Positions 17,591-40,994 of a stretch of DNA of 64,000 nucleotides are shown here, piece by piece. The stretch comes from Mobula hypostoma (taxonomy: Eukaryota). Numbering within the stretch: the stretch's first letter is position 1; every line of letters begins with the position of its first letter. A program made the translations under genes and the position numbers. Below the pieces are notes generated by a model. It worked only from the letters and a program-made list of their open reading frames with translations. It did not search any database and was not told where the DNA came from. The DNA lies in NCBI RefSeq assembly GCF_963921235.1, contig NC_086097.1:21206001-21270000 (forward strand). The letters are read 5' to 3'.

Positions 17591-17719
17591 TTTAAGATTC
17601 TTTTCAGCTCTGGAAAAGTCGAGGACCCCAGAAAAGTCCGGCGGGGGTACGCGCCTCTTGTAGTACTTGAAGAGCCTCCTGAAGGCGTCCTCCCCCTGTT
17701 CCAGCCGCCCGGCGGCCAT
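17591..17719 (-). CDS. ALKBH1: ALKBH1 coding exon 1 (AlkB-family nucleic acid dioxygenase); remainder not found in window
   Basis: Hand translation [43 protein letters not shown] resembles the vertebrate ALKBH1 N-terminus (GEDAFRKLFRFY...GVIDFS). It ends at phase-0 donor AAA|GTAGGT, lies in a CpG-rich region, and is head-to-head with SLIRP as in human. Confidence 0.88.
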
Positions 17720-17928: not shown

Positions 17929-17998
17929 ATGGCGGCGCCACCGTCCCGCAAGGTTTTCGAGGTCTTCATCTCTCGCGTTCCCTGGACCCTGGCAAACA
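17929..17998 (+). CDS. SLIRP: SLIRP exon 1 (RRM protein, mitochondrial)
   Basis: MAAPPSRKVFEVFISRVPWTLAN, RNP2-like VFISRVPW; donor A|GTGAGT, phase 1. Confidence 0.92.
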
Positions 17999-18153
17999 GT
18001 GAGTGACGCCGACTTTGCTTTCCGCTGCTCGGGAGGAATGCCTTTTTGTGCGAGTGATTTTTTTAAAAATTAAGCTAGTGGGCGATGGAGGAGTGGGCCC
18101 CGACCCTGTGCAATAGCAACCTTGGTCATGCACCCGAACTGAATATATAACCC

Positions 18154-18370
18154 ATAAAATGTTGGAGGTGCTCAGCAGGTCAGGCAGCATCTGCGGAGAG
18201 GAATAAGCGGTCAACGTTTCGGGCTGAGACCCTTCATCAGGACTTGTGAAGGTTGTCGTCCCAAAATGCTGCCTGTTCTCCATTATAGATGTCCCTGACC
18301 TGCTCAGCTCCCCCAGCATTCTGTGTGTGTTGCTGTGAATTTCTGGCATGTGCAGAATCTCTCATATTTA
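18154..18370. mobile_element. Fold-back insertion of two opposed Penelope-like termini
   Basis: Perfect 14-bp TSD tgaatatataaccc at 18140-18153 and 18371-18384; left arm is a minus-strand PLE terminus and right arm a plus-strand one. Confidence 0.85.
18209..18244 (-). ncRNA. Minimal type I hammerhead ribozyme motif
   Basis: Minus strand reads a-gtc-CTGATGA-a-gggt-ctca-gccc-GAAA-cg-TT-gac-c: core boxes, stem I (gtc/gac), stem II and palindromic ACGT in place of stem III. Confidence 0.7.
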
Positions 18371-19459
18371 TGAATATATAACCCTGCGTTTTGTATTTTA
18401 AAATTAAAACACTGAACTTCCACATGGAGCGTCGGCAGAAAGAAACAAAACTTTGGTTTTAAGTTGAAAACCCTCCATTTGGAATTTAAGTGTAATATTT
18501 CGTATTAGTACTGGTTTATCATTCACGTGTACTGAGTTACAGTGAAAACCCTTTGCATGTCAGCCAGACGGATCAGCCATATCTAAATTATAATACTAAG
18601 TTGTATGATATTAAGCCATACTGAAGTTATTCAATGTAGTAAAAAGCAAATAGAATCCGGGTATATATAGACTGTTACAGAGCAAGTGCAGTGCAGGCAG
18701 ACAAATAAAGTGCTAGGGCTATGATGAGCCAGATCAAGTGTTGCTCTTGTAGCCCATCAGTGGTCCATTCAAGAGTCAAATATAACTGGGTTAAAAGCAG
18801 TCCTTGAGTCTGGTGATATGCAGTGACTCCCTCCTTTAGACTATTTGAGGTAATTATTTTATTTTTTTACTTCTCTTCTGATATTTGTATATATGTGCAC
18901 TTGAAATGCAACTGTGATACTGTAATTTCTTTTGGGATCAATAAAGTATCCCTGAGAGATGGGAGAAGAGAGGATGACCAGGGTGGGAGGGAATCCTTGA
19001 TTACTGACAATGAGATGGGTTCTTTGAGGAGGTAAGTGAATAACATGGAACTGTTTCTACCACTGATAAAGAGTCTTTGACTTGAAATGGTAACTCTTGT
19101 TTGTTTTCTGAGTGTTTCCAGCATTTTCTGTTCTTATTTTGTATTGCTGATAAGGGAAATGGATAGTGTCAATTCAAGCTATTGAAAGGAAATTGACGGA
19201 CGTCCATGGAATGTTAATTTACTGAGCAACAGGGAGAGGGCTAAGGAAATGGGGATACATTTGGTATGTCTTTGACTTGTTACTTCGAAGGAAAACAGGC
19301 TGTCCCTTCTAAGATGCCTTATTCATCTTATAATTGTTTCCATTAAAGCATCCGGAATTGTCCTTAACTATGCACAAGATGCTGGAGGAATTGAGCTGGT
19401 CGAGTAGTATCTATGGAGGTAATTATCATGCACTTTGTAGGTGGTAAGAGTGGGCTCTC

Positions 19460-21143: not shown

Positions 21144-22199
21144 GTAAGTATTCAATTAACTTTAATCATACTCTGTGTTAATAAATATAAGCTGAATCTT
21201 TTCTTTCCTATCTTGAATGGATCAACTATATATTTTAGATTTTAAAATTAAATGCAGCATTGAAATCCCTTGTAAAGTCCAGAATGAGGAGAAGGCTAAT
21301 CGGTATTTCACAGAGATCTGCTTTTATTTAATCTATCTTATCAATTGTGTGAGGAAATATCAGGAAATGGCAAACTACAACAGATTTTAAGAAATTCCAT
21401 AAATACTTAAAACAGACAGAGAGGCAACCTGTTAGGGACTATGAAAAATAAAGTTTTGAAGTAAGGATGTACAGTAGCATGTGCCAACAGTTGTGAAATT
21501 TCAACTGGTACAGAGCAGTGAAGTGATTTTTGGGTTGGATACATTAATGTTAGAATTGCAAGTGGGTGTGGAGAAAGTGTAAATGTGTAAACTAGAACAG
21601 CAAACAAATGTCATAAGATGCTAGACAGATACAGTTTGGGACACCATAAGTAATTAATTGTGAGAATATTAAGCATTGACTGAAAGACGAGAATTTTAAT
21701 AAAAAGTAGCATTGTTTCCACTGGTTAGGTACAAATATCAAAGCCATGTTTATTGCCATAGGCACAAATACATGTATGCGAAGATGCAATAAAAAACTTG
21801 GGAGTTGCATCACAGGAACGTAGCATCTGATGTACATTATCACGAAAAATAAATTGAACACAATTTTTACAAGAAAGAACACAATTAGAACAAAAAAACA
21901 AAGAAAATAACTTCTTTGGAACAAAGTTTTCTATAATATAATGATTCATTCTTTTTATGTTCATAAAAGGGAGCTTTTTCTGGTTGGCTGCCAGTGACTA
22001 GTGATGTTCCAAAAAGTCTGGGTTGGGACCGCTTCTTTTACGTTATATGTCAATGATTTGGATGATGGAATTGATGGCTTTGTGGCCGAGTCTTCAGGTG
22101 GTATAAAAATAGGTGGTGAGGCAGGTCGTTTTTAGGAGGTGGAGAGGCTGTAGAAGGACAGATTAGGAGAATGGGCAGAAAAGTGACTAATGGGATTCA

Positions 22200-25058
22200 A
22201 ACCCGGACTCCAGCAATGACCATAGACACATTCGAAGTGATTGCGCAACCACCAACTGCGACTCCAGCCTTGAACTCCAGGCCGGGTCTTTATATGCTGC
22301 TATTGTGAATCCCGTCTCCCCTTCCCCCACCACCACTCTGCAATCCCATCTCCTTCAGATCCCACCGTCAGCTCCTGGGCCCTCAGAGGCTCCATCTTCC
22401 TCTCACCCCAACCCTCTCCTCTCCATTGACACTCCCAGCCTCCCCCCTCCCCACTCTGATCCCAGCTCTCATCCGTGCCGGGTCTTTACTATCCCCTCTG
22501 ACCTTCAACTGTCGGAGGCAGAGCGCTCTGTCCTCAGTAAGGGCCTCACCTTTGTCCCCCTTCGCCCACACCTCAGCGAGTTCTGTGTTCGCCATGATGC
22601 GGAACTTCTCTTCCGCTGTCTCCAAGCCTACTTCTTCGGCAAGGATCTTCCACCCCCACCGATGACCCCTTCTCCCGTCTTCAACCCTCCTCTTCTTCAT
22701 GGACACCCCGCTCTGGTCTTCTGCCTGCTCTGGATCTCTTTATTGCTAACTGCCGACGGGACATCAACCGTCTCGACTTCACCGCACCTTGTCCCCATTC
22801 CAACCTCACTCCTTCGGAACGCTCTGCTCTCCACTCCCTCCGCACTAATCCTAACCTTATTATTAAACCCGCTGATAAAGGGGATGCTGTTGTAGTCTGG
22901 CGTACTGACCTCTACCTTGCCGCGGCACAGCGACAACTCGTGGATACCTCCTCTTATTTACCCCTTGATCATGACCCCACTAAGGAGCACCAGGCCATTG
23001 TCTCCCACACCATCACCGACTTTATCCGCTCAGGGGATCTCCCATCCACTGCTACCAACCTTATAGTTCCCACACCTCGCACTTCCCGTTTCTACCTCCT
23101 ACCCAAGATCCACAAACCTGCCTGTCCTGGCCGACCTATTGTTTCAGCTTGCTCCTGCCCCACCGAACTCGTTTCTGCATACCTTGACACGGTTTTATCC
23201 CCCCTTGTTCAATCCCTTCCTACCTATGTTCGTGACACTTCTCACGCTCTTAAACTTTTCGATGATTTTAAGTTCCCTGGCCCCCACTGCTTTATTTTCA
23301 CCATGGATGTCCAGTCCCTATATACTTCCATCCCCCATCAGGAAGGTCTCGAAGCTCTACGCTTCTTTTTGGATTCCAGACCTAATCAGTTCCCTTCTAC
23401 CACCACTCTGCTCCATTTAGCGGAATTAGTCCTTACTCTTAATAATTTCTCCTTTGGCTCCTCCCACTTCCTCCAAACTAAAGGTGTAGCTATGGGCACC
23501 CGTATGGGTCCTGGCTATGCCTGCCTTTTTGTTGGCTTTGTGGAACAATCTATGTTCCGTGCCTATTCTGGTATCTGTCCCCCACTTTTCCTTCGCTACA
23601 TCGACAACTGCATTGGCGCTGCTTCCTGCACGCATGCAGAGCTCGTTGACTTTATTAACTTTGCCTCCAACTTTCACCCTGCCCTCAAGTTTACCTGGTC
23701 CATTTCCGACACCTCCCTCCCCTTTCTAGATCTTTCTGTCTCTGTCTCTGGAGACAGCTTATCCACTGATGTCTACTATAAGCCAACTGACTCTCTCAGC
23801 TATCTGGACTATTCCTCTTCTCACCCTGTCTCTTGCAAAAACGCCATCCCCTTCTTGCAATTCCTCCGTCTCCGCCGCATCTGCTCTCAGGATGAGGCTT
23901 TTCATTCTAGGACGAGGGAGATATCTTCCTTTTTTAAAGAAAGGGGCTTCCGTTCCTCCACTATCAACTCTGCTCTTAAACGCATCTCCCCCATCTCACG
24001 TACATCTGCTCTCACTCCATCCTCCCGCCACCCCACTAGGAATAGGGTTCCCCTGGTCCTCACCTACCACCCCACCAGCCTCCGGGTCCAACATATTATT
24101 CTCCGTAACTTCCGCCACCTCCAACGGGATCACACCACTAAGCACATCTTTCCCTCACCCCCCTCTCTGCATTCCGCAGGGATCGCTCCCTATGCAACTC
24201 CCTTATCCATTCGTTCCCCCCCCATCCCTCCCCACTGATCTCCCTCCTGGCACTTATCCGTGTAAGTGGAACAAGTGCTACACATGCCCTTACACTTCCT
24301 CCCTTACCACCATTCAGGGCCCCAAACAGTCCTTCCAGGTGAGGCAACACTTCACCTGTGAGTCGGCTGGGGTGATATACTGTGTCCGGTGCTCCCGATG
24401 TGGCCTTTTATATATTGGCGAGACCCGACACAGACTGGGAGACCGCTTTGCTGAACACCTATGCTCTGTCCGCCAGAGAAAGCAGGATCTCCCAGTGGCC
24501 ACACATTTTAATTCCACATCCCATTCCCATTCTGATAGGTCTATCCACGGCCTCCTCTACTGTAAAGATGAAGCCACACTCAGGTTGGAGGAACAACACC
24601 TTATATTCCGTCTGGGTAGCCTCCAACCTGATGGCATGAACATCGACTTCTCTAACTTACGCTAATGCCCCACCTCCCCCTCGTACCCCATCCGTTATTT
24701 ATTTTTATACACACATTCTTTCTCTCACTCTCCTTTTTCTCCCTCTGTCCCTCTGAATATACCCCTTGCCCATCCTCTGGGTCCCCCCCCCCCCCGGCCC
24801 CTGTCTTTCTTCCCGGACCTCCTGTCCCATGATCCTCTCGTATCCCTTTTGCCTATCACCTATCCAGCTCTTGGCTCCATCCCTCCCCCTCCTGTCTTCT
24901 CCTATCATTTTGGATCTCCCCCTCCCCCTCCCCCTCCAACTTTCAAATCCCTTACTCACTCTTCCTTCAGTTAGTCCTGACGAAGGGTCTCGGCCTGAAA
25001 CGTCGACTGCACCTCTTCCTAGAGATGCTGCGTTCACCAGCAACTTTTATGTGTGTTG
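22200..25058 (+). mobile_element. Penelope-like retroelement (RT + GIY-YIG endonuclease), 5'-truncated and frameshifted, inserted in a CR1 fragment
   Basis: LSKGLTFVP; ORF 22940-24238 (FYLLPKIHK, GRPIVS, MDVQSLY, GVAMG, RYIDN); end of ORF 23769-24665 (VIYCVRCSRCGLLYIGET...RFAEH); pyrimidine-rich 3' region; TSD atgggattca at 22190-22199 and 25059-25068. Confidence 0.95.
24973..25008 (+). ncRNA. Minimal type I hammerhead ribozyme motif in PLE 3' terminus
   Basis: agtc-CTGACGA(24977-24983)-agg-gtctcgg-cct-GAAA(24997-25000)-cg-TC-gact; predicted cleavage after the GUC ending at 25004. Confidence 0.75.
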
Positions 25059-25295
25059 ATGGGATTCAGTTGGGAAGTGTATGGTCATGCACTTTGGTAG
25101 AAGAAATAAAAGCATTGACTATTTTCTAAATGGAGAGAAAGTTCAAAAATCTGAGGTGCAATGGGACTTGTGCGGGATATGGGGAGAAGGCAGGGGATTG
25201 GGGCTGAGAGGGAAATGGATCAGCCATGATGAAATGTCAGAGCAGACTCGATGGGCCAAATAGCCTTGTGAATATCTTGTGTTCTTATGCTGAGA

Positions 25296-38679: not shown

Positions 38680-39893
38680 CTGGGGGAGAAAGAACACCAC
38701 ATTATTCAATTTCTACACCATACAAAGCTTTTTATTATTAATGTATTGTCTGAAATTACTGAAAATCAGACTTTTAAGCTGAATAGCATTTATTTGGATA
38801 CAGTTACTCTATCATACTGGAGGTGCCAATTATCATTTAAAAGAAGTTCCTACAACTGAAAACAAAATAATGAAATGCCCTGCATTTGTTGTATCGTGTG
38901 GTCCTCCTTAAGGAAACGAGCGAGTTTCATTTATAATCAACAAAGAAGATTCTGCTGTTACCTGGAGGCAGAGAAAGTAGGTAAGGTATGAAATATGTAT
39001 TTTGCATTAATATTGACAGAGGACATGGAAGATAACAAGATCCGAGAGGAGTATGCTGATATTCTACAACATGTCAATAACAAGCAAGTGGTGTTGGAGC
39101 TCTTGAAAAAACCAAGGTAGATAAGTTCCAAGGGTCTGACAGGATCCATCTCAAATTATTGAGACCTGAGATTACTGGCACCTTTGCAGACATCTATATA
39201 TCCACTTTAACCATAGACAAGATTCTAGAAGACTGGAAAATAACCTCCTTTCTTTAAGGGAAACAGAGACAACGAAGAAAATTATGTGCCACTGAGTCTT
39301 ACATCAATGGTAGGGGTATTACTAGAGACAAATCATAGGTGCATTTGCACACTTAGACTTACTAGGGATAGTAAGCATAGCTTCAGGTAGGGAAGTTCAC
39401 ATCTTATAAGCTTGAGTAAGTTTTTTTAAAATGATAAAGATGACTGAGTGGTGGAGTTAGTTTGGGGATCTGTGGTCCATAAGAGCATAAGACATAAGGG
39501 CAGAATTAGGCCATTTGCTCTGCCATTTCATCATAGCTGATTTATTATCTCTTTCAACCCCATTCTCCTGCTTATTCCCTGTAACCTTAGATGATCTTCC
39601 TGATCAAGAACCTAACAACTGCTGCTTTAAATATATCCAATGACTTGGCCTTCACAGCTGTCTGTGGCAATAAATCCCCCACATATTCATCACCTCTGGC
39701 TAAAGAAAGTCTTCCTCTCTCCATTCAAAAGGGAAGTCCCAGTGGTATTCTGTGAGGGTAAGTGCTGGGACTGCTGTACAAATGATTTTGCCAAAAATGT
39801 AGATGGGCTGATAAGTAAAGTTTGTAGATGACATAAAACTTGGTGGATCTGTAGATAATGAGGAAGGTTGTCAAAGGATACAGCAATATATAG

Positions 39894-40517
39894 CAATCCA
39901 CACAAAGTGCTGGAGGAACTCAACAAGTCAGACAGTTTCTATAGAGGGGAATAAAACGTTGCATTTTGGGCTGAGACCATTCATCAGGACTGGAAAGTAA
40001 GGGGACAGAAGCCAATTTAAAGTAGGGGAAGGGAAGGAGTACAAGCTGGCTGGTGATAGGTGAAACCAGATGAGCGAAGGTGGAAGAGGTAAAGAGGTGA
40101 AGGAGAAGGAATTTAAAAAGAGAGGACAGTGGACCATGGAATAAAGGGGAGGAGGGGAACCAGAGGGAGGTGATGGGCAGATGAGAAGGGGGCAACCAGA
40201 ATGAAGAATTGGAAAAGAGTAGGATGGAGGGGACAAATTACCAGCAGTTGGAGAAATCAGTATTAATCCCATCAGGTTGGAGGCTACCTAGACAGAATAT
40301 GAACTACTACCTATCACCTGCTGGTTTGTACCATTTCCCCTCCTTCCACCTTCTTATTCTGGCTTCTGCCCCTTTCCTTTCCAATCCTGAAGGGCCTTAG
40401 GCCCAAAATATTGACTGCTGATTCCCTCCATAGATGGTAGTTGACTTACTGAGTTCCTCCAGCAGTTTGGATGTGTTGCTCGAGATTTTCAGCATCTGCA
40501 AAATCTTGTTTATGATT
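39894..40517. mobile_element. Fold-back Penelope-derived insertion inside an old CR1 (~38950-40740)
   Basis: Minus-strand PLE 3' region (39894-~40300) joined to a plus-strand PLE terminus (~40310-40517); flanks tacagcaatatatag (39879-39893) and tacagcagtagatag (40518-40532) match 13/15. Confidence 0.75.
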
Positions 40518-40994
40518 TACAGCAGTAGATAGGTCAGTTAGAATCGTGGGCAGAGAAATGGCAGATGGAGCTTAATTTGGACAAGTATGATGTGTTGTGT
40601 TTCAGGAGGTCAAATGCAGAGGAATCTTCAGAGTAAAGGCAAGACCTTTAGGAGTTTAGAGGGATCTTAGGGTGTAATTCCATTGCTTCCTGAAAACACT
40701 ACTGAAGTTGATAGGGTGTTAAAGGTCGTACATGCGTATTGCAATGTCACTACAGCAGTGTAATGTCAAGTCACTGTGCCACACAAACATGATGTCAGCA
40801 GCTTCAGTATGGGCCACAGCCAACAGAGGTCAGATACTTTTGCGAAGGAGGCAAAAAAAAAATTCAATCGCTTTCTACACATTCTTTTTACAACTTTAGT
40901 AGCCAAGGATCAGTTTGTCCCACTTTTTTCTGAGGATGGAATTAGAAACAAATGTATTGCATTCAACTGCCCGAAACCACAAATGCTTCTAAAT

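What the first reader, a model, noticed from the sequence alone, without database searches (positions are those of the whole stretch)
18140..18384. 217-bp fold-back, hammerhead-carrying Penelope-derived insertion with a perfect 14-bp TSD at the start of SLIRP intron 1
Seen: tgaatatataaccc is duplicated exactly on both sides. The insert has no coding sequence and consists of two PLE termini pointing outward. The left arm holds an intact minimal hammerhead on the minus strand; the right arm holds a decayed one. Established: PLEs often leave inverted terminal fragments and carry minimal hammerheads. Inference: the perfect TSD alongside clearly diverged arms suggests the composite may have moved as a unit, i.e. 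a tiny non-autonomous ribozyme-bearing retroelement reminiscent of a retrozyme. It lies 155 nt from the SLIRP donor at the edge of the shared CpG island and could form a long hairpin in the pre-mRNA.
Basis: partly seen in the sequence, partly recalled or inferred. Interest (0 to 1): 0.75.

Follow-up and report, generated by a model that had tools for sequence, protein, structure and literature searches.

The report
Old fold-back Penelope retrotransposon stub
This 217-base hairpin in the first intron of SLIRP is an ordinary, old insertion of two back-to-back ends of a very common Penelope-type jumping gene; it was likely built at the moment of landing rather than copied as a unit, and its one recognisable ribozyme motif lies on the strand that SLIRP does not transcribe and is predicted to be silent.

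Summary
Observation confirmed: perfect 14-bp TSD, 217-bp fold-back, 155 nt from the SLIRP donor. Both arms are the hammerhead-bearing end of a Penelope-like element with RT and GIY-YIG. The claim that the composite moved as a unit is not supported. Head-to-head pairs are common (22 in 800 kb, about 1e5 per genome). Their junctions vary (19 lengths in 50 listed). Tailed and tail-less arms form no separate lineages. No sister carries this copy's private changes. TSDs of 12-15 bp are the family norm, and other diverged pairs keep perfect ones. The insert is old: three related organisms carry it. The minus-strand motif keeps its core but has U at position 17 and a 3-bp stem I, and is predicted to be masked by the hairpin. 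The SLIRP-sense copy is broken. The architecture is published (PMC8557442, PMC3846280). The family data (one tail per pair, 21 of 24; arms sharing private variants) fit one RNA copied twice at both cut strands. This scan has reported the same pattern before, on this and other genomes.

The parts
18140..18153 (+). left target-site duplication (14 bp)
18154..18245 (-). inverted, tail-less PLE terminus (hammerhead + arm), stopping about 9 nt short of the usual proximal end; 11.5% from the majority of old arms
18208..18245 (-). minimal type I hammerhead motif: C3 at 18240, extra A after A9, 4-bp stem II, palindromic 15.1-16.1, U17 at 18213, 3-bp stem I; predicted masked in the hairpin
   Evidence: motif description in PMC4209133
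18238..18246 (.). head-to-head junction in the 50-nt register, at a 3-nt self-complementary word at the foot of the hammerhead
18243..18336 (+). sense PLE terminus with broken hammerhead (G5, A6 and G12 changed, stem II mismatch, small indels); 25% from the majority of old arms
18337..18370 (+). about 34-nt PLE tail, present on this arm only
18371..18384 (+). right target-site duplication (14 bp)
17929..17998 (+). context: coding part of SLIRP exon 1; donor at 17999
17594..17719 (-). context: start of ALKBH1 coding exon 1, divergent from SLIRP
   Evidence: E 9.6e-6

Best explanation
The insert is a short head-to-head insertion of an endonuclease-bearing Penelope-like retrotransposon, likely assembled once at this site when the element's enzyme primed reverse transcription from both cut strands of the target, and it has likely decayed in place since. 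Shown: the arms are the element's hammerhead-bearing terminal repeat, which lies both behind and in front of an RT + GIY-YIG ORF; the family has two alternative outer ends about 35 nt apart; inverted pairs nearly always use one of each; the two arms of a young pair are closer to each other than to other copies; junctions vary; TSDs centre on 12-15 bp. Inferred: staggered nicks 14 nt apart, two cDNAs begun at the two internal start sites of the same RNA (or two RNAs of one source), both ending at the foot of the hammerhead where the RNA may begin, then joined through a 3-nt complementary overlap. Predicted: no self-cleavage, since the SLIRP-sense motif is broken and the antisense motif is a lone, weakened, masked monomer.
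For: Linkage to ORF: RVT_1 (E 1.9e-5) and GIY-YIG (E 3.4e-4), both under Pfam's cut-off, in L068; tblastn hits in 19 of 30 old-subfamily loci; the same repeat 736 nt ahead of an ORF segment in 4 of 19 loci. Abundance: 24 inverted pairs and 126 single arms in 864 kb; 22 pairs in the 800 kb outside the window give about 96,000 (60,000-145,000) per genome. One tail per pair: 21 of 24 in that sample and 15 of 15 in loci picked on the hammerhead alone, against 49% expected from 60 of 107 singles (P 1e-4 and 2e-5). In L088, L142 and window 39862-40530 neither arm contains the other, so neither is a copy of the other. Young pairs (n=23): 0.035 within, 0.076-0.078 between, 0 of 2000 permutations as low; tailed-tailed, tail-less-tail-less and cross distances equal. 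Junctions: 249 young pairs, 19 lengths among the 50 listed (counted by hand). TSD of 12 or more exact bases in 16 of 27 young and 7 of 51 older pairs. Literature: inverted 5'-truncated copy and one-sided 30-40 bp tail (PMC8557442; PMC3846280); both strands cut and extended, two internal RT starts bounding the tail, hammerhead not needed for insertion (PMC11167929).
Against: This copy's arms differ by 32%, among the top 5 of 41 old pairs, and unevenly (11.5% and 25% from the majority). A perfect 14-bp TSD at that age has a chance of only about 3-23%. Its junction register recurs (9 of 50; 133 near-matches), as descent from a shared composite would also give. Arm concordance in young pairs could also come from one dominant source or from conversion between arms. 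DNA searches scored only 40 candidates each (of 3298, of 310). The mechanism is read from genomic products, not tested. No empty site was found.
Confidence: 0.82

Rival explanations
1. The 217-bp composite is a non-autonomous, retrozyme-like element that was transcribed as a fold-back RNA and moved as a unit by PLE proteins.
For: Many loci match nearly the whole 217 bp at 73-78%. The junction register recurs. The TSD is perfect while the arms are 32% apart. PLE proteins can act in trans on sequence between pLTRs (PMC3846280).
Against: 0 of 5 exact-junction loci share the private changes and 4 of 5 have the tail on the other side. Best non-self match to the right arm is 82%. No separate left-arm and right-arm lineages. 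Junction lengths run from 39 to 68 nt in the listed young pairs, and hammerhead-to-hammerhead offsets from -66 to +406 in the blind sample. The insert is shared with related organisms. There is no tandem or same-strand hammerhead pair.
Confidence: 0.06
2. The mirror arm arose by self-priming: one cDNA (or an antisense template) folded back at the short palindrome at the hammerhead foot and was copied again.
For: Proposed for inverted PLE junctions in PMC3846280. Explains the identity of young arms and the palindromic junction words. Among the 29 non-self loci the tail lies, by eye, about 13 times on the side that fold-back from a tailed strand predicts and 7 times on the other.
Against: In this copy the tail-less arm reaches further 5' than the tailed arm, so neither is a sub-copy of the other; the same holds, by 75-330 nt, in L088, L142 and window 39862-40530.
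Confidence: 0.09
3. The hairpin or ribozyme has been kept because it affects SLIRP splicing or the shared ALKBH1/SLIRP promoter.
For: Position 155 nt into intron 1 at the edge of the CpG island. Retained in three related organisms. Only 3 differences in 115 nt across its right end in the most distant one.
Against: The sense hammerhead is broken; predicted pairing of the donor with the insert is 0.006; the longest perfect helix is 11 bp. Arms have decayed at least as much as other old pairs. With about one pair per 36 kb such a position needs no special cause.
Confidence: 0.03

Closest known systems
Complex insertions of EN+ Penelope-like elements: inverted 5'-truncated pLTR, one-sided 30-40 bp tail, TSD (PMC8557442 Fig. 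2 legend, passages; Adineta Pen2a in PMC3846280, passages)
   Same: Head-to-head pLTRs with a short overlap, tail on one end, TSD, hammerhead in the pLTR.
   Different: No ORF between the ends; both arms stop at the hammerhead foot; TSD 12-15 bp against 8-10 bp in Adineta; about 1e5 such pairs per genome.
Minimal hammerheads of metazoan PLEs (Cervera and de la Pena 2014, PMC4209133, parts 1-2 of 4)
   Same: Type I, no helix III, extra nucleotide after A9, palindromic 15.2-16.2; that paper also notes pairs on opposite strands 100-700 bp apart and no activity of a single motif.
   Different: Here the two motifs overlap at the fold; one is broken, the other has U17 and a 3-bp stem I.
Anolis Poseidon PAc in vitro (Frangieh et al. 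2024, PMC11167929, parts 1-2 of 4)
   Same: Hammerhead ahead of the ORF, two internal RT starts bounding the tail, both target strands cut and extended.
   Different: This family has a Neptune/Nematis-type Cys linker (no tree built). The paper's main text does not describe coupling of the two start sites in inverted products; its supplements were not read.
Non-LTR retrozymes of metazoans (PMC7229834, passages)
   Same: Small, non-coding, hammerhead-bearing, flanked by TSDs.
   Different: Retrozymes are direct tandem repeats with canonical type I ribozymes giving circular RNA; this is an inverted pair with minimal, masked motifs.

Membership tests
EN+ Penelope-like element insertion | terminus belongs to an element encoding RT and C-terminal GIY-YIG endonuclease | tested here: met
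   both Pfam hits below curated cut-off; 19 of 30 loci
EN+ Penelope-like element insertion | the repeat stands both before and after the ORF (pseudo-LTR, partial tandem) | tested here: met
   (4 of 19 loci, young subfamily)
EN+ Penelope-like element insertion | minimal hammerhead in the pLTR | tested here: met
   against PMC4209133; sequence only
EN+ Penelope-like element insertion | inverted 5'-truncated copy, 30-40 bp tail on one end, TSD | tested here: met
Neptune clade | Zn-finger-like Cys motif between RT and EN | tested here: met
   seen in translations; shared with Nematis per PMC8557442
Neptune clade | RT groups with Neptune in a tree | not tested
   no reference sequences fetched
Self-propagating non-autonomous element | copies share junction and private changes with different TSDs | tested here: not met
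   searches score only top candidates
Self-propagating non-autonomous element | left and right arms form separate lineages | tested here: not met
Non-LTR retrozyme | direct tandem repeats with same-strand hammerheads | tested here: not met
   (next minus-strand core found by the pattern is 10.5 kb away)
Non-LTR retrozyme | canonical type I hammerhead with helix III | tested here: not met
Non-LTR retrozyme | self-cleavage and circular RNA | not testable with these tools
   needs cleavage assay and RNase R northern

The most novel reading that the evidence does not exclude
These fold-backs are a fossil record of how Penelope elements insert: one enzyme dimer cuts both strands about 14 nt apart and copies one RNA twice, once from each of its two internal start sites, running off near an RNA start at the hammerhead foot. 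The strict one-tail rule and the private variants shared by the two arms of young pairs would be the signature. This concerns the family, not this copy.
Probability: 0.55. Interest if true: 0.45.

Novelty: new member of a known kind. Interest (0 to 1): 0.15.

Why it matters
This copy matters little: it is an old, decayed stub of a published architecture. Its use is as a caution: a perfect TSD with diverged arms and a recurrent junction do not show a self-copying mini-element. The family statistics bear on an open question, how PLEs form inverted copies with a one-sided tail, and suggest a direct test in the existing in vitro system.

Tried and rejected
Rfam scan gave no hammerhead; its 7 weak hits are all far below gathering scores. 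A recalled name for palindromic PLE derivatives found no relevant paper and was dropped. Searches for a paper on such stubs in rays or on twin priming in PLEs found none relevant; the library lacks most subscription journals and Repbase. Empty site: no joint skipping the insert among those listed, but lists were cut and repeat contigs swamp the region. No holder on record as RNA was listed; two runs guessed to be RNA do not cover 18014-18145, which is not evidence of silence. The TSD letters in related organisms could not be read cleanly. The constrained fold was off by one base and was redone. One search used the wrong frame and is void (redone). One search hit an unrelated repeat. Some of the 36 'single' arms starting at the hammerhead foot are missed or decayed pairs. 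Loci were picked by a one-tailed query, so the pooled 78 of 88 is biased and only the two unbiased subsets are used. Duplicate or self loci (6, 8) were dropped; 23 of the 88 pairs were left out (not one-tailed, or an arm too short). In one search this copy scored 12 rather than 14 because of the narrower search box.

Full report
Observation. The window has identical 14-mers at 18140-18153 and 18371-18384 around 217 bp with inverted arms. Both strands fold far better than shuffles (z -5.67 and -6.65). The insert starts 155 nt after the SLIRP donor at 17999. SLIRP is identified by an exon match to the human protein, by exon positions, and by contigs of two runs guessed to be RNA that end at 17998. 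ALKBH1 runs the other way from 17719. The insert lies at the edge of the CpG-rich stretch.

What the arms are. Single-arm relatives continue upstream through about 300 pyrimidine-rich bases into an ORF with RT, a Cys-rich linker and GIY-YIG. In the older subfamily, to which this copy belongs, 19 of 30 loci gave tblastn hits to that protein. In 4 of 19 long young copies the same repeat stands at a fixed distance ahead of the ORF, so it is a pseudo-LTR. Copies end at two places about 35 nt apart, the PLE tail. This copy has the tail on the right arm only.

How common. In 864 kb (80 stretches of 10 kb chosen without regard to content, 20 of them beside the window, plus the window) profile searches found 24 head-to-head pairs and 126 single arms. 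The 22 pairs outside the window scale to about 96,000 per genome (60,000-145,000), 18 of them short. An exact two-arm pattern found 249 young pairs, control 0.

Did it move as a unit? For: many loci match nearly the full length at 73-78%, and the junction register recurs, with 133 sites within one mismatch against 6 for the control and 9 of 50 listed young pairs. Against: the 50 listed junctions have 19 lengths, many with private filler (counted by hand). The recurrent register coincides with a 3-nt self-complementary word at the hammerhead foot. None of the 5 exact non-self matches shares the right-arm changes, and 4 have the tail on the other side. The decayed right arm has no match above 82% over its length among 40 scored of 310 candidates. 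In 23 young pairs the arms differ by 0.035 within an element and by 0.076-0.078 between elements whichever sides are compared; in 41 old pairs 0.196 against 0.208-0.231. A propagating composite would give separate left and right lineages; none is seen. Two of 78 columns differed weakly between sides in old pairs (P about 0.01, neither fixed).

The TSD argument. Exact TSDs of 12 or more occur in 16 of 27 young and 7 of 51 older one-tailed pairs, against 1 of 400 random boxes; L032 and L083 keep perfect 14-mers with arms 31-32% apart. The insertion is old: contigs bridge both borders in organism B (about 3% diverged, and one contig spans the junction with 3 differences in 104), the left border in organism C and the right border in organism D (7-9% diverged; its left contig enters the insert by 29 nt, just under the tool's 31-nt rule). 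The uneven decay of the two arms (11.5% and 25%) is not explained.

Mechanism. One tail per pair holds in 21 of 24 pairs of the sample and 15 of 15 pairs picked on the hammerhead alone, against 49% expected from single arms. In several pairs neither arm contains the other, which argues against simple fold-back copying. Young arms share private variants within a pair. Arm 5' ends pile up at the hammerhead foot: 36 of 126 singles start between -12 and +5, and 36 of 54 young arms between -11 and +8, of which up to 30 come from loci picked for short junctions. PMC11167929 (parts 1-2 of 4 read) reports that a PLE protein cuts and extends both strands, starts at two internal sites bounding the tail, and needs no hammerhead cleavage. 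I infer two primings at a staggered cut, likely on one RNA, joined head to head by a short overlap. That the RNA begins at the hammerhead foot is a lead from earlier scan notes, consistent but untested.

The ribozyme. The minus-strand motif matches the minimal PLE hammerhead of PMC4209133 (parts 1-2 of 4), where single motifs did not cleave. It has U17 in place of C, which lowers cleavage rates (recalled, not from a call), and a 3-bp stem I. In the whole insert RNA the predicted probability of stems I and II is near zero. It is antisense to SLIRP and upstream of the ALKBH1 start codon. The sense motif has three core changes. In the pre-mRNA the hairpin forms (55 pairs at P>0.8, longest perfect helix 11 bp) and does not pair with the donor.

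What is known. The architecture is described in PMC8557442 (passages) and PMC3846280 (passages); opposite-strand motif pairs in PMC4209133. Retrozymes differ in being direct tandem repeats (PMC7229834, passages; PMC6155905, passages). Paper searches showed no paper on these stubs in this lineage or on coupled use of the two start sites; supplements were not read and Repbase is not searched. Earlier notes of this scan describe the same stubs and the same model on this and other genomes (none by sequence); I reached my reading before seeing them.

Verdict. Interest 0.15.

Noticed in passing
window 22195-25075 (+): Long, 5'-truncated, frameshifted copy of the young PLE subfamily (RT, Cys linker, GIY-YIG, 3' repeat with hammerhead) in SLIRP intron 2.
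   Followed up: partly
window 39862-40530: A second, longer head-to-head pair of the old subfamily; the tail-less arm has over 330 nt of upstream sequence, the tailed arm about 78.
   Followed up: partly
window 18371-18373 and L002-L030: The first three bases of the right TSD also follow the tail in 9 of 29 other loci (two of them duplicates), and the last bases of the left TSD resemble the element's proximal end; this hints at short homology with the target at both ends.
   Followed up: no
family, 4-10 nt before hammerhead C3: Initiator-like pyrimidine-A words lie where arm 5' ends pile up in both subfamilies (consensus recalled), a possible RNA start.
   Followed up: partly
L007 and L008 (G000:C50): Two loci about 220 kb apart, in opposite orientation, with the same element and the same flanks: a segmental duplication or assembly duplicate, not a transposition.
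   Followed up: no
window 18675-18721 and 21966-22185: Other high-copy repeats in SLIRP introns 1 and 2.
   Followed up: no
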